Assembly: GCA_963842885.1 (NCBI GenBank)
Contig: CAWJIE010000005.1
Location: 96,001-160,000, forward strand
Reading direction: 5' to 3'
Length of the DNA stretch: 64,000 bases
Origin: an uncultured Nitrososphaerota archaeon
GTDB lineage: Archaea; Thermoproteota; Nitrososphaeria; Conexivisphaerales; DTJL01
This document shows positions 29,302 through 34,799 of this stretch, piece by piece. The position numbers and the translations under genes are program-made. A model generated the notes under the pieces. That model saw only the letters and a program-made list of their open reading frames with translations, searched no databases and had not been told where the DNA came from. Each line of letters starts with the position of its first letter. The first letter of the stretch is position 1.

Positions 29302-30786
29302 TCAGCTTCCTTGCTTCACCGTCTTCCTTTCGACCGCCTCCTGTGCCGAGAAGAAGAGCCGGGTGAAGCCCAGCGTCTGGAACCCCGCGTCGCGCACCCG
29401 GAGGACGACGGGGAGGTCGCCGACGGCCTTCCCCAGCATCAGGCAGTGGCGTGGAGGGAGGGACCTCACGATGCTCTTCACAGTCTCGGCGTCGGTCATC
29501 GAGGCCTGGGCCACCGTCTCAAGGTCGCGGTCGTTGGTGAAGTTGTAGAGGAACACGTTGTCGGCCTGCCTGTAGACGCCGGCGCCCAGGGCGTCGGGCT
29601 GGTTGGTGACGAAGACAGTGAAGACCCCGTAGTGGCGCATCCTCGTGATCAGATCCTCCCAGTAGGTCTGCCTTAGGTAGAGGTGGGCCTCCTCCGCGAA
29701 GAGGAACATGGGCGGCAGCATGCGCTGCTCTAGGGTCTCCACCACCTTGGCGAGGAGGGCCTCGACTATCATCCGCCTCGCCAGCGGGTTGACGCCGGCC
29801 ATCGATACGATGACGGCTCCTCCCCCTGCCTGGCTGGAGTAGAGGTCCTCCAACCGCACTTCGTACCTCTCGGAGTCGGTGAAGAGGCCGGAGGAAAGAA
29901 GGCTGTAGTATCTCGACAGGAGAGCGTCCCTCACTAGCTCATTGCAATGCCAATGCTGGATGACCTCCTCCATGTCCTTGAGCGTGATTCTTCCGGAGCT
30001 CTCGAGGTAGTCCCAGACACGAAGGAACTCTCTCAGGGTGGCCCCAGGGACCTCCAGCACGTTCTGGAAGATGTCCAGCATTATCCGCCTGCCGAGGTAC
30101 CTTATCGTGAACTTCAGGTTATGCCCGGGCTGGAGGACCTTGACCTTGTCCGCGTATCGGCTGGCGGAGCCGTCGCGGGAGAACGAAAGCCCGCCGTATT
30201 CGTTGTTAAGGTCGAAGACCAGGATATAGGCCCCGAAGTCCAGGAGGCCCGCGGCGAGCAGCTTCGCGATGTGAGACTTGCCCGCTTCCTTCCTGCCGGT
30301 TATTATTGTGAGCCTGCCGTCCAAGTCCTCCGCGTTGATGGAGAACTCCTCGCCGGAGAGGGTGCTTCCCAGCCGGATTGGCCTCCCGCCTCGCCGACCC
30401 ATGAGCGAATAGAGCTCGTCAAGGGGAAGCCTTGCGATGCGGCTGTTGCTCCTGCTCGGGAGCCAGCCCATGTCGGGGAGGGCCACCCCGCGGTCCACCA
30501 CGCACCGTATCTTGCATTTGAGGACCTTCGCGTCCTTGATCATGTATGAGATGCTGTTCAGCTGGAGGGGGTCGCTGTGGACAAGCTCGGATGTCGCGAA
30601 GAGCTCGTCCCTGAGCATCTCCTCTTGGATTCCCATGGAGTCGAGGTAGGTATCATCGTAGACTTGGACGATGAGAGAGCGCCCCTCCTTGTCGTCCGAA
30701 ATCTTGACGTAGTCGCCCTTCTTGAAGTCCTCCTCGGGCATGGTGAGGATGCGGATCTCGTCCCCCTGCTTCTCGAGTATCTTCAG
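29302..30786 (-). CDS. herA: HerA-like helicase/ATPase
   Basis: Walker A GRKEAGKS, Walker B FAEEAH, RMRHYG, TNQP; frame stays open upstream to a CTG at 30786 overlapping the nurA stop. Confidence 0.85.
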   Translation of the reverse strand: MKILEKQGDEIRILTMPEEDFKKGDYVKISDDKEGRSLIVQVYDDTYLDSMGIQEEMLRDELFATSELVHSDPLQLNSISYMIKDAKVLKCKIRCVVDRGVALPDMGWLPSRSNSRIARLPLDELYSLMGRRGGRPIRLGSTLSGEEFSINAEDLDGRLTIITGRKEAGKSHIAKLLAAGLLDFGAYILVFDLNNEYGGLSFSRDGSASRYADKVKVLQPGHNLKFTIRYLGRRIMLDIFQNVLEVPGATLREFLRVWDYLESSGRITLKDMEEVIQHWHCNELVRDALLSRYYSLLSSGLFTDSERYEVRLEDLYSSQAGGGAVIVSMAGVNPLARRMIVEALLAKVVETLEQRMLPPMFLFAEEAHLYLRQTYWEDLITRMRHYGVFTVFVTNQPDALGAGVYRQADNVFLYNFTNDRDLETVAQASMTDAETVKSIVRSLPPRHCLMLGKAVGDLPVVLRVRDAGFQTLGFTRLFFSAQEAVERKTVKQGS

Positions 30787-31810
30787 CTCGCCCCGCGCCT
30801 CCTAGACATGGTCAGGGGGCCGAGGACGGTCTTTCGCAGGCTGTCAGAGGGGAGGACCGTGACCTTGGCCTTCCTGGTGAGCTGGCTCTTGACCACCGCC
30901 TCCTCGAGGTCGGAGAATATCGAAAGGAAGTGCGCCGCCCTCAACGTCTCCGGGTATCCCCTCACCAGCAGGTCGCTTTCGCCGACGGTGGAGAGGACCT
31001 CGTCGGGGTCCTCCGACCTCGTCAGGTCGACGCGGAAGGGCATGCCGTCGGACGTCAGCTTCGAAAGGTAAGACTTCCCGAGGAGGTCGGCCACGAAGAG
31101 CCTGACGTGCTGCGTGATGTCGACGTAGGAGGGAGGGAGCCCGTCCTCGAACAACTGGCTCTCTATCCCCTGCAGCACCTTTAGCTTCGTGCTCTTGGCG
31201 ATGCCCGCAAGGAGGGTGAGCTCGCCGTCGCACCTGTCGACAAGGGACTTCAGGGTGCTCCCCCTGGGTTCGAACACCGAGGGTTTCAGGGAGCCGTCTA
31301 GAAGCAACAACCCTTGCTCGAGGCTGGTGGAGACTTCATGCGCAAGCACTCTCTCCATCAGGACCCGGATAAGCCTCATGGCCATCCCGGAGTCCGAAAG
31401 GATGAGTCGCCTGGGCACAGGCTTCTCCAGCAGCCCGAGCAGGGTTTGGACACTGTCGTCGCCCACGTAGATTACACTGGGGCCGACCACAACGGAGTTC
31501 TTCGCGCCGCCTATGTTGAAGGCCAGTGAGGCCTTGGCAGCGTACACAGCGCCGTCGTCCGTCTCCGCGATCTGGATGACGCTCGAGTCCAACGCGGCGA
31601 CGTCTCTCCTCCTGCCCTTCGGCTGGATGGGGTGAATCTCGACCGCGTCCCCGGCGCTCCTCCAGCCCTTGATGGGCTCCAGGTCTTCGCCCCTCCTAAC
31701 CAGAACAAGCTTCTTGCCGTCCAGCTCGGAGAAGCTGTTGGCTGAGAGCTCCCCGAACCTGCTGACGGCGGGCGAAGAGAGGATAACGTTTAATTGCTTG
31801 TTCAACTTGA
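30783..31810 (-). CDS. nurA: NurA-like nuclease
   Basis: AALDSS, LLLDGSL, GIAKST, GYPETLRAAH; start uncertain. Confidence 0.8.
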
Positions 31811-31886
31811 CCAACAACAGTACAGGCTGGTAGGCTAAATAAATGTTGCGCAACTTGATTGTGTTCAACAATAAGGGGACTCGACG

Positions 31887-32285
31887 TTGAGCTCCACCGT
31901 CATACACATCAAGCTCAAGCGAGGCGGATGGGAGGTCGAGCTGGACGTCCCCGAAGACCGCGTGTCGGAGGTCATAGCGAAGGTCCTAGCCGGGCTGAGC
32001 GCGAAAGGCCCCGGCGAAGGCGGCCTCTTCGCCCAGGAGAAGCCCGATCGGGGAGTGACCTGCAAGACGTTGCTGGAGAAGCTCTGGGGCGAATCGTGGT
32101 TCGGGACGCTGCGGAGCCTTTCGGAGGTGGACGAGGAGCTGGCAAGGATAGGGTACCATTACGACAAGACGGCCATCTCTCACAGCCTCACCGACCTAGT
32201 CAGGGAAGGCACCTTGAGCAGGGACGGGACTCCCCGCAGCTACCGCTACGTGCAGAAGAAGCCTCCGGAGAACTCCCTAGCCTAG
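31887..32285 (+). CDS. Small protein: N-terminal beta-hairpin/helix domain plus C-terminal wHTH
   Basis: IHIKLKRGGWEVELDVPEDRV..; WFGTLRSLSEVDEEL..ISHSLTDLVREGTLSR..YRY. Confidence 0.75.
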   Translation: MSSTVIHIKLKRGGWEVELDVPEDRVSEVIAKVLAGLSAKGPGEGGLFAQEKPDRGVTCKTLLEKLWGESWFGTLRSLSEVDEELARIGYHYDKTAISHSLTDLVREGTLSRDGTPRSYRYVQKKPPENSLA

Positions 32286-32774
32286 CTTCCCGAGGGACTT
32301 CGCCAGCCAGTTGACGCCGGTCGTAGTGATGTAGTAAAAGACGCCGTTGTCGGAGGCAAGCCGGTCGGCGTGGCCGGCCTTCGTCATCTCGCTCAACCTC
32401 GAGCTTATGCTCTTCGGGTTGAGCCCCGTAAGGCGCTCAAGGTCCTGAAGGGTGGCCTTGTCCGAACTGAGCTTGGCCGCCTCCAAGCCAATCTTCAGCG
32501 ACACCAGCTGGAGGGCGATCAGCATCTTGTCGCTGAGCTTGGCGTCTGTGATGACGCGGGGGCCTTCAGGCGTCATGCGCACATAGTCCTGGAAGATGTT
32601 CGTGAGTTCAGAGAGGGAGTAGTTCAGCACGAGGGTCTTCGCCAGCTCGAGTGTGGGTATCTGCTTTGCCATCAGGTTGTTGAAGCTGACAGCGACCTCC
32701 TCCGGCGCGCCAATCAGGTCGGCTTCGAAGCCGTCGAAGTTGACGTGAACGCGGACCTCCTTTTTCTCAGACAA
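32277..32774 (-). CDS. Small protein: N-terminal beta-hairpin/helix domain plus C-terminal wHTH
   Basis: VRVHVNFDGFEADLIGAPEEV..; TLQDLERLTGLNPKSISSRLSEMTKAG..YYITTTGVNW. Confidence 0.75.
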   Translation of the reverse strand: MSEKKEVRVHVNFDGFEADLIGAPEEVAVSFNNLMAKQIPTLELAKTLVLNYSLSELTNIFQDYVRMTPEGPRVITDAKLSDKMLIALQLVSLKIGLEAAKLSSDKATLQDLERLTGLNPKSISSRLSEMTKAGHADRLASDNGVFYYITTTGVNWLAKSLGKLG

Positions 32775-32829
32775 ATCTCAAGACCTCATTGTTTCTAGAT
32801 CGCGACGTCTTGCGATGTAGTGCCCTCAC

Positions 32830-32990
32830 TCGGCGTTAAAAGACTTGCGGGTTCTGGGAAGTTATCGGTTGACTCTTCCCTTCGAGACATCGACTCTGAG
32901 GATTACAGGCATCGTCTGGTTCCCCTTCATCGCTTCAACTGCCTCGCCTTTGGAATGGGCGAACCTCACCCACCCTTTGTGCGAGATGTT
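32830..32990 (-). ncRNA. Predicted omegaRNA (reRNA) scaffold plus guide
   Basis: Stems GGGTGGGTGA/TCGCCCATTC, CGAGGCA/TGTCTCG and GGGAAG/CTTCCC overlap the tnpB 3' end; the guide would be the flank CGCAAGTCTTTTAACGCCGA. Confidence 0.6.
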
Positions 32991-34115
32991 CATGACGGCG
33001 ACCAAGTCCCGGTCGAACCACTTCCCGCACTTCGGACACCAGAGCTGTCTATCATGCTGGACGTCCTCTCTTGCTGCCCCTTGGAGTCTCTCCCCGCATC
33101 GGTAACAGTTCGACGACGTCCCTCTGGTCTCGGCTTCAGTCAGACGTATCACCGGGATGCCGGCCCACGCAGCCTTGTACTCGATCTGCCTCTTGATCTC
33201 GGCGTAGGGCCAGCTGTTCATCATCCCCCTGTAGCTCCTCCCCTGCCCGTTCCCTTTCTGGTAAAGCCTCCTGATATCTCGGATGTCTTCGAAGGCGATT
33301 GCTTGCTTATCCTTCACTGCGTCAGCTACGACCATTTTGGAGACTCTGTGGAGGATGTTCTGGATGCGGCCGCGTTTCCTCCTTCCGTACTTCGACGCTA
33401 TCCTCTTCCCAACCCGGACATCGTTCCTCTTGAAGGACCTGACCGCGCTCTTCGTAATCTCTGCTATGTCCACGGCCTTCGCCATGCCATAGTAGGTCAC
33501 CTTCCTATCGCCGCCCACCGTCAGGTTGCGAAGGTTCCTGTCTACCCCGACAGCGCTGGCCAGGCCCTTCAACTCCTCCACCTCTTTCGAATAGGAGACT
33601 GACAGCGATGTCTCCGTCAGCGTGAAGGAGTTCGCCTTCAGCGTCGTGTCGGACAGGACGTGCAATGTGTGCCTGTTCAGCGGTATCTCCTCATGCTTGC
33701 GATCTCCAGTTGGTATGCTAAGGACGCCATTGGTGACCTTGAAGCCATAGCAGGAGGTCAGCATCGGCCTACTCAGGTATGGAGACTTCGTCTGATTTCC
33801 CCTCCTAATCGATTTCTTCCTCGATGCCAGGATGCCGGCGGCCTTTGAAATGGCGCACAGCTTGTAGTAAGAGGGGACGCGGAACCTTGAAAGGCTTTGA
33901 TATGAAAGGAGGCTCAGGCGTCGGAGGGTCGAAGCGTCGCCGGACAGCCCTATGCGGATGCACTCATTCGTCATCTCCTTGAACGACCGCATGAAGATCT
34001 AGGACTTCCGATGAGGGAGAATATGACTGCCGCACCGCCTTCCTGGCCAGCAATTCAGAAATGCAGTACGGAATCACTATTAAGGGCCTGCATCAGCCGA
34101 CAACTTCCCAAAGCC
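32850..34115 (-). mobile_element. TnpB-only element with 23-bp TIRs and an 8-bp target-site duplication
   Basis: TIRs 32850-32872 (GGTTCTGGGAAGTTATCGGTTGA) and 34093-34115 (reverse complement GGCTTTGGGAAGTTGTCGGCTGA), 19/23 identical; flanks GACTTGCG (32842-32849) and GACTAGCG (34116-34123). Confidence 0.8.
32862..33992 (-). CDS. tnpB: RNA-guided endonuclease TnpB
   Basis: RuvC-I VGVDRN, RuvC-II IAFEDI, zinc finger CYRC..CPKC, RuvC-III DRDLVAVMNI; the true start is probably ~34054 (MLARKAVRQSY...), separated by small indels. Confidence 0.92.
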   Translation of the reverse strand: MRSFKEMTNECIRIGLSGDASTLRRLSLLSYQSLSRFRVPSYYKLCAISKAAGILASRKKSIRRGNQTKSPYLSRPMLTSCYGFKVTNGVLSIPTGDRKHEEIPLNRHTLHVLSDTTLKANSFTLTETSLSVSYSKEVEELKGLASAVGVDRNLRNLTVGGDRKVTYYGMAKAVDIAEITKSAVRSFKRNDVRVGKRIASKYGRRKRGRIQNILHRVSKMVVADAVKDKQAIAFEDIRDIRRLYQKGNGQGRSYRGMMNSWPYAEIKRQIEYKAAWAGIPVIRLTEAETRGTSSNCYRCGERLQGAAREDVQHDRQLWCPKCGKWFDRDLVAVMNISHKGWVRFAHSKGEAVEAMKGNQTMPVILRVDVSKGRVNR

Positions 34116-34175
34116 GACTAGCGTAACTCAGCGAAGAGGTCGCACGACCGTGGAAAGCGTACGCCCTTCTGTGCG

Positions 34176-34718
34176 TCACGGGCCGGCGACGGAAGCGTCG
34201 AAGACGGATGGAGTCGAACCAGGTCTCTCCTGGGCGGCCTGTTGGTATTCGGCGCCCGACTGTAGCAGGCTCGTGGAGGAGGTGTACAGGAAGTCGCCGT
34301 CAGGGCCCTTGAACCTCCTGAGCTTCCCCTCCTGTGCCAGCCGGAGCAGCGCCACTGCCACGGACTGCCTCGGGTAAACGAGGCCGAAGGACTCGAGGGC
34401 GCCCTTGACCTCTAGGAGGCGCCTGGGGGTCCTCCCCCATGAGGAGCCGAAGAGCTTCGTCATGATGCTGGGGAGCGATTCCCCCTTCTCCACCCTGAGC
34501 TCGGGGAGGTCCTGAAAGGGCGCCTGCTGGGCCTGCACGTTCGCCGGAGGCTGAGCTAGCGTCACGGGCGGAGGAATCGACGAAGGCTTCTCAGACGCCA
34601 TCCCTTCGACAATGGCAGGGACGAGCTCGATGAGGTCCTCCAAGGAGTCCTTCGGACCCTCGATTTCAACTTCGTTTGCACCGACCTTGACCCTGACCCT
34701 TACGTTATCAGAAGACAT
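34176..34718 (-). CDS. Small protein: N-terminal beta-hairpin/helix domain, Pro/Gln linker, C-terminal wHTH
   Basis: VRVRVKVGANEVEIEGPKDSL..; WGRTPRRLLEVKGALE..SVAVALLRLAQEGKLRRFK..FLY. Confidence 0.75.
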   Translation of the reverse strand: MSSDNVRVRVKVGANEVEIEGPKDSLEDLIELVPAIVEGMASEKPSSIPPPVTLAQPPANVQAQQAPFQDLPELRVEKGESLPSIMTKLFGSSWGRTPRRLLEVKGALESFGLVYPRQSVAVALLRLAQEGKLRRFKGPDGDFLYTSSTSLLQSGAEYQQAAQERPGSTPSVFDASVAGP

Positions 34719-34799
34719 CGTAAACAAGGTTGGAGAATGCCGATATAACGGTTTCCTGGGAAGGCTACGAAAGGAGAACGCTGGTCCTCAAGTATTCGT

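What the first reader, a model, noticed from the sequence alone, without database searches (positions are those of the whole stretch)
32830..32990. omegaRNA built into the TIR; the guide begins with the TSD and reconstructs the empty site with a T-rich TAM
Seen on the minus strand: three stems overlap the tnpB tail, and the last (GGGAAG/CTTCCC) uses TIR sequence; the tnpB stop codon lies inside the TIR. The sequence after the end is CGCAAGTC-TTTTAACGCCGA. The reconstructed empty site reads ...GAGTTA-CGC(A/T)AGTC-TTTTAACGCC, so the guide would match it next to a GTTA/TTA motif. Established: TnpB guides are the flank following the element end, and TAMs are 5' and often T-rich. Inference: in the occupied allele the TAM is followed by only 8 matching bases, and the single TSD mismatch falls at guide position 4, possibly limiting self-targeting. 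The guide also covers a TTTTAA TATA-like box of the downstream wHTH gene.
Basis: partly seen in the sequence, partly recalled or inferred. Interest (0 to 1): 0.7.

Follow-up and report, generated by a model that had tools for sequence, protein, structure and literature searches.

The report
TnpB guide RNA inside IS6-type transposon end
A small mobile element in an archaeal genome carries only an RNA-guided nuclease gene (tnpB), and its guide-RNA scaffold is built into the element's inverted-repeat end, so the RNA would read out into the duplicated target site and recognise the still-empty version of its own insertion site.

Summary
On the minus strand, window 32850-34115 is a 1266-bp element with 23-nt inverted ends (19/23), an 8-bp target duplication (7/8) and one gene, tnpB, whose stop codon lies in the right end. 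A genome of the same genus has the empty site with one copy of CGCAAGTC.

The last 124 nt (32973-32850) form a conserved structured RNA. Across 43 relatives, 95.5% of pair cells are paired and 22 of 34 pairs show compensatory changes. The terminal hairpin and a pseudoknot arm (GAACC) are right-end repeat sequence.

Ends and duplication are of IS6 type. The genome holds an IS6-like DDE transposase element with matching ends, so the tnpB element is probably moved in trans.

At 60 unique insertion sites, the two bases 5' of the left duplication are T then A/G in 51. There is no mirror motif on the other side. DDE-bearing relatives show the motif on 1 of 20 sides. This is the signature expected of a TAM, here (W)TR, beside a guide that starts at the duplication.

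No RNA data exist. RNA ends, cleavage and the trans-mobilisation are inferred. It is a new variant of the known DDE-associated TnpB kind.

The parts
34124..34126 (-). Candidate TAM (TTA) immediately 5' of the left target-duplication copy. The orthologous empty site in G012 has TTG.
   Evidence: Sequence. Empty site. TR at this position in 51 of 60 unique sites.
34116..34123 (-). Left copy of the 8-bp target-site duplication (CGCTAGTC; position 4 mutated).
   Evidence: The single copy CGCAAGTC in the empty site of G012.
34093..34115 (-). Left terminal inverted repeat (GGCTTTGGGAAGTTGTCGGCTGA).
   Evidence: pair I1. Conserved at the left ends of other copies.
34077..34083 (-). TTAATAG, conserved just inside the left end in four own-genome copies. 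Possibly the element's own TATA-like promoter box (inferred).
   Evidence: Alignment by eye of left ends. Function not tested.
32862..33992 (-). tnpB, 376 aa, with the RuvC residues D151/E235/D329 and the CxxC..CxxC zinc finger intact.
32850..32973 (-). Predicted omegaRNA scaffold, 124 nt. It overlaps the last 112 nt of the tnpB ORF, stop codon included, and ends at the tip of the right repeat.
   Evidence: RNAalifold and pair counts on 43 sequences. Covariance model R1 hit at 131.6 bits over exactly this range. Single-sequence fold.
32961..32965 (-). GGTTC in the loop of the first hairpin: 5' arm of the predicted pseudoknot.
   Evidence: helices 2-3; one compensatory change and two G-U pairs among 41 sequences.
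32850..32854 (-). GAACC, the last five bases of the element: 3' arm of the pseudoknot and tip of the right repeat.
   Evidence: Terminus conserved in 72 of 75 loci scanned.
32856..32880 (-). Terminal hairpin GGGAAG...CTTCCC. Its 3' arm is right-repeat sequence and its loop holds the tnpB stop codon.
   Evidence: All 6 pairs show compensatory changes across relatives (helix 8).
32850..32872 (-). Right terminal inverted repeat.
   Evidence: pair I1. Contigs of other strains or copies diverge exactly at 32849/32850 (table 7).
32842..32849 (-). Right copy of the target duplication (CGCAAGTC), predicted guide positions 1-8.
32830..32849 (-). Predicted guide (CGCAAGTCTTTTAACGCCGA). The 20-nt length is assumed from other TnpB systems. 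It includes TTTTAA at 32836-32841.
   Evidence: Inference from family precedent plus TAM position. 18 of 20 bases (the first 15 contiguous) match the empty site of G012. TCTTTTAACG is conserved in three congeners.

Best explanation
Window 32850-34115 (minus strand) is a non-autonomous transposon of IS6 type. It has GG-tipped inverted ends, an 8-bp target duplication and no transposase. Its only cargo is an intact RNA-guided nuclease gene, tnpB.

The last 124 nt of the element encode the omegaRNA scaffold. It has a 5' hairpin, a multi-stem middle domain and a terminal hairpin. A pseudoknot joins the loop of the 5' hairpin (GGTTC) to the very last bases of the element (GAACC).

Transcription that runs through the right end adds the flank as the guide. 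That guide is the 8-bp duplication followed by the next roughly 8-12 bases.

The resulting TnpB-RNA complex can only match a chromosome that lacks the element. There, the motif (W)TR, the single 8-mer and the right flank are contiguous. In the occupied allele only 8 bases follow the motif before the left repeat begins.

Cutting the empty allele and repairing it from an occupied copy would spread or retain the element (homing).

Movement to new sites is most likely carried out in trans by an IS6-like DDE transposase encoded elsewhere.

Shown here: the anatomy, the empty site, RNA covariation, the orientation-specific upstream motif, and an intact catalytic triad.

Inferred: the RNA ends, cleavage, homing, and trans-mobilisation.
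For: 1. Element and empty site. G012 has the flanks joined as ...GCTGTTG-CGCAAGTC-TTTTAAC....

2. Structured RNA on the sense strand.
- On 43 relatives, 34 pairs in 8 helices give 95.5% of cells paired. Shuffles give 78.7% and slid controls 25-42%.
- 22 pairs have compensatory changes, and 0 of 500 shuffles reach any measure.
- Several pairs are mostly G-U (190-248 in 41 of 43, 199-242 in 29). These would be A-C mismatches on the other strand.
- The terminal hairpin has no counterpart at the left end (sequence).
- Model R1 finds the five tnpB copies at 121-132 bits.
- In distant relatives the R1 hits end exactly at the repeat tip. No hit better than 17.4 bits (E 0.05) falls in 30 DDE loci, L238 or L239.

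3. TAM signature.
- At 60 unique sites defined by their duplication, the dinucleotide 5' of the left copy is T+A/G in 51. The flank background is 0.143, giving a binomial p of 4e-34.
- The mirrored motif on the right side occurs in 9 of 60, which is background.
- In one Nitrosopumilus genome, 10 of 10 tnpB elements with a duplication have TTG or TTA there.
- DDE-bearing elements with the same kind of ends and perfect 8-bp duplications have TR on 1 of 20 sides (Fisher p 1e-10).

4. Nuclease intact. D151, E235, D329 and four zinc-finger cysteines are invariant in 7 aligned relatives. A profile matches solved Cas12f and TnpB structures.

5. IS6 link.
- The genome has a 2920-bp element with ends GGTTCTGG..CGGTTGA.
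- It encodes a 420-aa protein that matches Pfam DDE_Tnp_IS240 (59.3 bits, cut-off 27) and covers the whole NCBIfam IS6 profile.
- The family hallmarks, namely 8-bp repeats, GG tips and a cTGTt motif, are as described in PMC7986276 (passages read).
Against: - No RNA run holds this sequence. Neither the transcript nor its ends were seen.
- The single-sequence fold is only modestly better than shuffles (z = -1.68).
- The pseudoknot rests mostly on invariant bases. It has one compensatory change and two G-U pairs among 41 sequences at column pair 91-304, and one A-U, one G-U and one unpaired at pair 85-306.
- 67 of 166 loci gave no detectable duplication. They were left out of the motif counts, so those counts are conditional on a recognisable duplication.
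- 9 of 60 sites lack TR.
- The DDE controls come mostly from genomes other than those of the tnpB elements.
- The trans-mobilisation link is weak at genome level. Of 10 sampled genomes with the tnpB family, only 3 also have a DDE relative at E<=1e-40. The NCBIfam IS6 score of 105.7 bits is below its cut-off of 125.
- The own-genome DDE element has no duplication.
- This particular copy has a diverged left repeat (4 of 23 bases) and a mutated left duplication, so it may no longer move.
- Metagenome contigs showed only the occupied allele.
Confidence: 0.75

Rival explanations
1. TAM-directed insertion. The TnpB-RNA complex, or TnpB alone through its TAM-reading surface, takes part in choosing the insertion site. 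The DDE transposase is then steered to integrate right after a TTR, left end first. Every new copy is therefore born with a usable guide. On this reading the motif reflects targeting at integration, not later selection by homing.
For: - The motif is nearly universal in apparently recent, near-identical copies within one genome. 10 of 10 with a duplication, and 13 of 14 overall, have TTR on the left-end side.
- Its position is exact and its orientation strict.
- DDE-bearing relatives lack it.
Against: - No known TnpB acts in integration.
- Consensus assemblies only show insertions that reached high frequency, so a filter by homing explains the same data.
- 9 of 60 sites lack TR.
- No protein-protein link was tested.
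Confidence: 0.12
2. DNA-level explanation. The conserved 3' region and hairpin are subterminal transposase-binding DNA, and the TR motif is a target preference of the (unidentified) transposase that moves tnpB elements. No flank-derived guide RNA is involved.
For: - The terminal hairpin arm and GAACC are repeat DNA that a transposase must bind in any case.
- The transposase partner is not proven, since only 3 of 10 genomes hold both.
- One 851-bp element with no tnpB and no R1 (scaffold model) hit up to E = 1 (L239) has TTA on one side.
Against: - The structure is specific to one end and one strand. It has many G-U pairs and no counterpart at the left end.
- DDE transposases acting on two like ends give symmetric target preferences, but the motif is one-sided.
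- DDE-bearing elements lack the motif.
- Deletion or cargo-swapped derivatives that keep the scaffold (L242, L244) keep the motif on the predicted side.
Confidence: 0.06
3. Domesticated regulator. This TnpB no longer serves the transposon. Like TldR-type relatives, it uses its fixed guide to bind the TTTTAA promoter box of the downstream gene (32277-32774) and so regulates it.
For: The predicted guide covers TTTTAA. TCTTTTAACG is conserved upstream of the orthologous gene in three congeners.
Against: - The RuvC triad is intact.
- The element is multi-copy, with different flanks and duplications.
- The closest congener lacks the element at this site, so it is a recent insertion and not a fixed regulator.
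Confidence: 0.03
4. The element is an ordinary IS200/IS605 (IS1341-type) tnpB-only element moved by the Y1 TnpA encoded elsewhere in the genome.
For: The genome has one Y1 transposase gene (C5:213342-213695, 142.5 bits). It lies next to a distant TnpB (C5:212299-212835, 27% identity).
Against: According to the review PMC13565253 (passage read), IS200/IS605 elements have neither terminal inverted repeats nor target duplications. This family has both, with an 8-bp duplication verified by an empty site.
Confidence: 0.02

Closest known systems
IS200/IS605-family TnpB-omegaRNA systems (e.g. ISDra2)
   Same: - A RuvC nuclease with a zinc finger.
- An RNA scaffold that overlaps the 3' end of tnpB and ends at the right transposon end.
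- A guide read from the flank.
- A TAM equal to the bases 5' of the left end.
- The proposed role of cutting the empty site so that it is repaired from an occupied copy.
   Different: - Those elements have no inverted ends and no target duplication, and are moved by a Y1 TnpA that itself selects the TAM-like target (PMC13565253, passage read).
- Here the ends are inverted repeats and an 8-bp duplication forms guide positions 1-8.
- Here the TAM lies outside the duplication, and the last scaffold elements are made of repeat sequence.
DDE-transposase-associated TnpB branches (Altae-Tran et al. 2023, PMC10691335; section 9 and passages read)
   Same: - TnpB inside transposons with inverted terminal repeats.
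- The tnpB 3' end lies close to the transposon end.
- Solo TnpBs are flanked by the same ends as transposase-bearing copies, so they are mobilised in trans.
   Different: - The partners named in print are IS630, plus ISL2 and IS1031 as listed in PMC13565253. IS6 is not named in the texts I could read.
- I found no description of the TIR-tip pseudoknot, of a TAM outside the duplication, or of the contrast between tnpB-bearing and DDE-bearing elements.
Fanzor nucleases in eukaryotic TIR/TSD transposons
   Same: An RNA-guided TnpB homologue carried by DDE-type transposons that make target duplications. The guide RNA reaches the inverted end.
   Different: In Fanzor systems the short, fixed 5' duplication (TA, TTAA) is read as part of the TAM (PMC13565253, passage). 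Here the duplication is 8 bp of variable sequence and would be read by the guide, with the TAM upstream of it.
IS6/IS26 family insertion sequences
   Same: - An 8-bp target duplication.
- Short inverted ends with GG tips and a cTGTt motif (PMC7986276, passages). Most relatives here read GGTTCTGT(T/C)AA...
- The putative partner protein carries DDE_Tnp_IS240.
   Different: - Classic members are about 800 bp and carry only the transposase.
- These elements carry tnpB instead of a transposase.
- The partner protein is 420 aa with an N-terminal SWIM zinc finger, and scores below the NCBIfam IS6 cut-off.
Cas12f (type V-F) effectors
   Same: These are the best solved-structure matches of the protein profile. 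NCBIfam Cas12f2 scores 81 bits. I recall a T-rich 5' PAM of the TTR kind; this comes from memory and no call confirms it.
   Different: There is no CRISPR array, and the guide comes from the transposon flank.

Membership tests
TnpB (OMEGA RNA-guided nuclease) | RuvC-like domain with a D-E-D triad and a C4 zinc finger | tested here: met
   D151, E235, D329, C299, C319 and C322 are invariant in 7 relatives, and C296 is present in this copy. Pfam Cas12f1-like_TNB scores 58.6 bits against a cut-off of 26.3. NCBIfam guided_TnpB scores 97.2 bits, just under its cut-off of 100.
TnpB (OMEGA RNA-guided nuclease) | Structured omegaRNA overlapping the 3' end of tnpB and ending at the right transposon end | tested here: met
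   Covariation on 43 sequences. Covariance model hits end at the repeat tip. The RNA itself was not observed.
TnpB (OMEGA RNA-guided nuclease) | A conserved TAM 5' of the sequence matched by the flank-derived guide | tested here: met
   TR at 51 of 60 unique sites, on one side only. Absent from DDE-bearing relatives. This is comparative evidence only.
TnpB (OMEGA RNA-guided nuclease) | RNA-guided DNA cleavage | not testable with these tools
   Needs biochemistry or an interference assay.
IS200/IS605 transposon family | No terminal inverted repeats and no target-site duplication; Y1 TnpA chemistry | tested here: not met
   A 23-nt inverted repeat and an 8-bp duplication are present. The element has no TnpA. 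The only Y1 gene of the genome lies elsewhere.
IS6/IS26 family (as a non-autonomous derivative) | 8-bp target duplication | tested here: met
   Empty site in G012. 46 elements have perfect 8-bp duplications.
IS6/IS26 family (as a non-autonomous derivative) | Inverted ends with GG tips and a cTGTt motif | tested here: met
   Right ends read GGTTCTG(T/G) in nearly all loci. This copy has CTGG in place of CTGT. The motif is as described in PMC7986276.
IS6/IS26 family (as a non-autonomous derivative) | A cognate IS6-type DDE transposase with matching ends in the same genome | tested here: inconclusive
   Present in this genome (C5:414111-417030) and in G036 (L238). Only 3 of 10 sampled genomes with the tnpB family also hold a DDE relative. 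The NCBIfam IS6 score is below its cut-off.
IS6/IS26 family (as a non-autonomous derivative) | Replicative (cointegrate) transposition | not testable with these tools
   Mechanistic; needs an assay.

The most novel reading that the evidence does not exclude
TnpB here is not only a homing nuclease. Through its TAM-reading surface it steers an IS6-type DDE transposase to integrate immediately 3' of a TTR motif, in a fixed orientation. Each new copy is therefore created with a working guide (the duplication plus the flank) next to a valid TAM. This would be a guide-independent, TAM-directed form of transposon targeting.
Probability: 0.12. Interest if true: 0.85.

Novelty: new variant of a known kind. 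Interest (0 to 1): 0.65.

Why it matters
TnpB nucleases are understood mainly in IS200/IS605 and IS607 elements. There the transposase itself inserts next to the TAM and excises without a scar.

What they do in DDE-type transposons, which insert with duplications, has been an open point. A 2026 review notes that such associations are rare in prokaryotes and calls their benefit unclear (PMC13565253, passage read).

This family is common in soil, peat and marine Nitrososphaerota. A capped metagenome scan gave 544 confirmed relatives. The family offers a natural test case for three reasons:

- The scaffold has fused with the transposase-binding end.
- The duplication becomes part of the guide.
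- Only the tnpB-bearing elements sit next to a one-sided TTR motif.

That contrast is population-level evidence that the nuclease shapes which insertions persist, or where they land.

The proteins are compact (about 376 aa), with a short TAM and a defined 124-nt scaffold. That also makes them candidates for genome-editing work.

Tried and rejected
- RNA evidence. No RNA holder was listed for the element, so the RNA ends could not be tested.
- Allele polymorphism. I laid contigs of four DNA runs. Only the occupied allele was seen in X1 and X2, and no contig joined across the element. This shows no polymorphism but does not exclude it.
- Rfam. No family matched at E<=1 apart from a chance hit to RSV_PBS on the other strand.
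- Earlier notes of this scan. Three look-ups returned nothing.
- A permissive repeat pattern with 2 mismatches matched hundreds of places and was useless. It was replaced by an exact-class pattern.
- A regex for the scaffold core with 2 mismatches gave 9 spurious hits in DDE loci. It was replaced by the covariance model.
- Tiny repeat-only pairs in the own genome (C2:16105-16174, C3:171283-171351) have no duplications, so they could not serve as tnpB-less controls.
- The 851-bp element L239 has no tnpB and no R1 (scaffold model) hit up to E = 1. It has TTA on one side, and as a single control it is ambiguous.
- The idea that TTAA at -10 is an alternative TAM with a guide starting 6 bases earlier was rejected. 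The 6 bases before the duplication do not match the AGAACC end of the RNA.
- A script error was corrected.
- I ran no structure prediction, fold search or complex prediction, because the family assignment did not need them.

Full report
**What is there**

Read on the minus strand, the window holds a 1266-bp element from 34115 to 32850.
- It has 23-nt inverted ends, GGCTTTGGGAAGTTGTCGGCTGA and GGTTCTGGGAAGTTATCGGTTGA, which match at 19 of 23 positions (pair I1).
- The 8-mers flanking it are CGCTAGTC on the left and CGCAAGTC on the right.
- Its single ORF of 376 aa (32862-33992) is a TnpB. Pfam Cas12f1-like_TNB scores 58.6 bits. NCBIfam guided_TnpB scores 97.2 bits, just under its cut-off of 100. 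A profile of seven relatives matches solved Cas12f and TnpB chains.
- The RuvC residues D151, E235 and D329 and the zinc-finger cysteines are conserved.
- The stop codon (32862-32864) lies inside the right repeat.
- The surrounding genes (a HerA/NurA pair and a GatE-like ORF) and the relatives found later place the host among Thermoproteota/Nitrososphaeria-type archaea.

**The duplication is real**

The genome has four more copies with the same anatomy. Two have perfect 8-bp duplications (CCGAGCTA, CCTATCTA). One has an in-frame TAG and no duplication.

A genome of the same genus, G012, carries both flanks at 91-95% identity with nothing between them. It reads ...CCCGCTGTTG-CGCAAGTC-TTTTAACAGCG.... 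So CGCAAGTC is the original target, it was duplicated on insertion, and the left copy later mutated.

**Family**

Scans with a seven-protein alignment gave two sets of loci.
- Public genomes: 133 confirmed relatives, 80 kept. All are MAGs labelled Nitrososphaerota, Thaumarchaeota, Conexivisphaerales or soil 'Bathyarchaeota'.

In 72 of 75 loci scanned, the sequence downstream of the protein match has three parts:
- a strongly conserved stretch (...GTAATCCTCAGAGTCGATGCCTCGAAG);
- a hairpin of variable sequence;
- the terminus CAGAACC, allowing one mismatch.

**The RNA**

I aligned the last 180 nt of 43 elements. RNAalifold predicted 29 pairs, 17 of them with compensatory changes. It also predicted a long-range pairing between GGTTC, in the loop of the first hairpin, and the terminal GAACC.

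I then counted a 34-pair structure that includes that pseudoknot and the first hairpin.
- 95.5% of cells are paired, against 78.7% in shuffles and 25-42% when partners are slid by 1-3 columns.
- 22 pairs have changes on both sides, and 0 of 500 shuffles reach any of the five measures.
- The first hairpin (5 of 5 pairs), the long closing stem (6 of 7), an inner stem (3 of 3) and the terminal hairpin (6 of 6) all covary.
- The pseudoknot is mostly invariant. At column pair 91-304 it has one compensatory change (GCTC with GAGCC) and two G-U pairs.
- Many pairs are G-U, so the structure belongs to the sense strand.
- The hairpin has no counterpart at the left end.

A covariance model of 130 positions and 29 pairs gave these results:
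- It finds this copy at exactly 32850-32973 with 131.6 bits.
- It finds the other four copies at 121-130 bits, and a remnant at C1:38557-38689 at 59.8 bits.
- In elements of a distant subfamily it scores 47, 43.5, 30.6 and 17.7 bits, each hit ending at the repeat tip.
- It finds nothing better than 17.4 bits (E 0.05) in 30 loci of DDE elements, L238 or L239.

The single-sequence fold shows the same three domains. Rfam has no matching family.

**Ends of IS6 type**

The 8-bp duplication and ends with GG tips and a CTGT motif are the hallmarks of the IS6/IS26 family (PMC7986276, passages read).

The own genome holds a 2920-bp element at C5:414111-417030.
- Its ends are GGTTCTGGTCGGTTGTCGGTTGA and GGCTCTGGTCGATTGTCGGTTGA.
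- It encodes a 420-aa protein with a SWIM zinc finger and a DDE_Tnp_IS240 domain. The NCBIfam IS6 profile is covered end to end at 105.7 bits, below the cut-off of 125.

No tnpB element contains a DDE gene. The tnpB elements are therefore best read as non-autonomous IS6-type elements moved in trans. This remains an inference.
- In a sample of 401 genomes of the phylum, 37 have a relative of the DDE protein and 10 have the tnpB family. Only 3 have both.
- The own-genome DDE element has no duplication.

A Y1 TnpA exists elsewhere in the genome next to a distant TnpB. However, IS200/IS605 chemistry makes neither inverted ends nor duplications.

**The TAM test**

If the guide is the flank after the right end, the target in an empty chromosome starts with the 8-mer. 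The TAM must then be the bases 5' of the left copy.

I defined insertion sites by finding the 8-mer that follows the right end again upstream of tnpB, next to a repeat-like sequence.
- Of 166 loci, 78 gave a candidate, 67 gave none, and 21 lacked an end or a flank.
- After filtering on distance, mismatch and repeat score, 59 remained. After removing repeated sites, 48 remained.
- Among those 48, position -2 is T in 43 (chi-square p 1e-20), position -1 is A or G in 42, and position -3 is A or T in 35.
- The first bases after the right copy show no bias.

I added 12 elements from one Nitrosopumilus genome, G036. Its repeat pattern occurs 138 times there, against 9 for the control. This gave 60 unique sites.
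- TR occurs at 51, WTR at 44 and TTR at 28.
- The mirrored motif on the right occurs at 9.
- The TR frequency in the flanks is 0.143, giving a binomial p of 4e-34.

Within G036, 10 of 10 tnpB elements with a duplication have TTG or TTA on the left-end side. So do 3 of 4 without a duplication. A 497-bp deletion derivative and a cargo-swapped element that both keep the scaffold have it on the predicted side too.

As a control I collected DDE-bearing elements from the phylum sample. Ten have GG..CTGT ends and perfect 8-bp duplications. TR precedes the duplication on 1 of their 20 sides (Fisher p 1e-10 against 51 of 60). Two more, with GGTGCTGT ends and seen, also lack it by eye.

The motif is therefore tied to tnpB and to its orientation. 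This is what a TAM predicts and what a symmetric DDE target preference does not. For this copy the motif is TTA, and the empty site in G012 has TTG. The predicted guide matches that site at 18 of 20 positions, the first 15 contiguous.

**How it most likely works**

1. tnpB is transcribed from the left end or from outside.
2. The 3' part of the transcript folds into the scaffold. Its last hairpin and pseudoknot arm are repeat sequence.
3. Read-through adds the duplication plus flank as the guide.
4. The complex cuts chromosomes in which TTR, the 8-mer and the right flank are contiguous.
5. Repair from an occupied copy installs the element.

In the occupied allele the match ends after 8 bases, so self-cutting is not expected.

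IS6-type transposition is described as replicative (PMC7986276). The nuclease would then serve spread into empty alleles rather than repair after excision.

The near-universal TTR could arise in two ways. Homing-competent insertions may be the ones that reach high frequency. Alternatively, the nuclease may influence where the element integrates. My data do not separate these two.

**Compared with what is known**

TnpBs in DDE transposons with inverted ends, and solo TnpBs mobilised in trans, are in print (PMC10691335, section 9 read). The partners named are IS630, ISL2 and IS1031 (PMC13565253, passage read).

I found no text linking TnpB to IS6-type elements or to Nitrososphaerota. The additional files of the 2023 paper were not visible to me.

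In Fanzor systems the short duplication is part of the TAM. Here it is part of the guide target.

I therefore rate this a new variant of a known kind.

**Not shown**

I have no transcript data, no cleavage data, no direct link to the transposase, and no polymorphic alleles. Contigs of two runs hold only the occupied site.

Noticed in passing
Left flanks of related elements (e.g. L079, L082, L086, L091, L099, L117, L130, L244); not present at window 34124-34133: A second one-sided motif. TTAA sits exactly at -10..-7 from the duplication in 12 of 60 unique sites, against at most 2 at any other offset, and with no peak at any downstream offset (at most 2, one at the mirrored +7). The sequences further upstream are unrelated. 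Four of the nine sites without TR belong to this group. It may be a host TATA box placed to drive transcription into the left end. Unexplained.
   Followed up: partly
Own genome G000:C5:414111-417030 (outside the window; L009/L245): A 2920-bp IS6-like element with inverted ends of about 52 nt. It has a 420-aa SWIM + DDE_Tnp_IS240 protein and two cargo ORFs without family matches (164 aa, and a 213-aa ORF). It has no target duplication.
   Followed up: partly
DDE-bearing elements L249, L250, L254, L257, L259, L261, L263: The 8-bp duplications of DDE-bearing elements are A/T runs that resemble each other (TGTTTTAG twice, its complement CTAAAACA, ATAAAACA, TTAAAAAG twice, CAAAAAAT). This suggests a target preference of the transposase that the tnpB elements share only weakly.
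   Followed up: no
Own genome G000:C1:38557-38689 (minus): A remnant of the right end. The 3' half of the scaffold plus the repeat scores 59.8 bits with model R1. It lies downstream of an unrelated ORF, with no tnpB.
   Followed up: partly
Own genome G000:C2:16105-16174 and C3:171283-171351: Pairs of facing repeat-like sequences about 70 bp apart (miniature elements made of two ends only), without duplications.
   Followed up: no
L242 (497 bp) and L244 (1454 bp) in genome G036: Derivatives that have lost most or all of tnpB but keep the scaffold and both ends. L244 carries part of another zinc-finger transposase-like ORF. They could supply guide RNAs to TnpB made elsewhere.
   Followed up: partly
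Own genome G000:C5:212299-213695: A conventional IS605-type pair, a Y1 TnpA (142.5 bits) next to a distant TnpB (27% identity to the one studied), coexists with the IS6-type tnpB elements.
   Followed up: no
window 29302-31907 (minus): Adjacent ORFs of 479 aa and 374 aa match the HerA helicase central domain (DUF87) and NurA: an archaeal HerA-NurA end-resection pair.
   Followed up: no
window 32826-33109: Summed contig depth in four metagenome runs rises 2- to 10-fold over the scaffold region. This is because many related copies share this conserved stretch. Several contigs diverge exactly at 32849/32850.
   Followed up: partly
window 31887-32285 (+), 32277-32774 (-), 34176-34727 (-): Three small ORFs around the insertion have no Pfam match. 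The two on the minus strand begin with similar N-terminal segments.
   Followed up: no
Own genome G000:C5:330294-331558 (L002/L017): This copy (82% protein identity) has an in-frame TAG, a degenerate left repeat tip (TCCTCTGG) and no duplication. It is probably decaying or rearranged.
   Followed up: no
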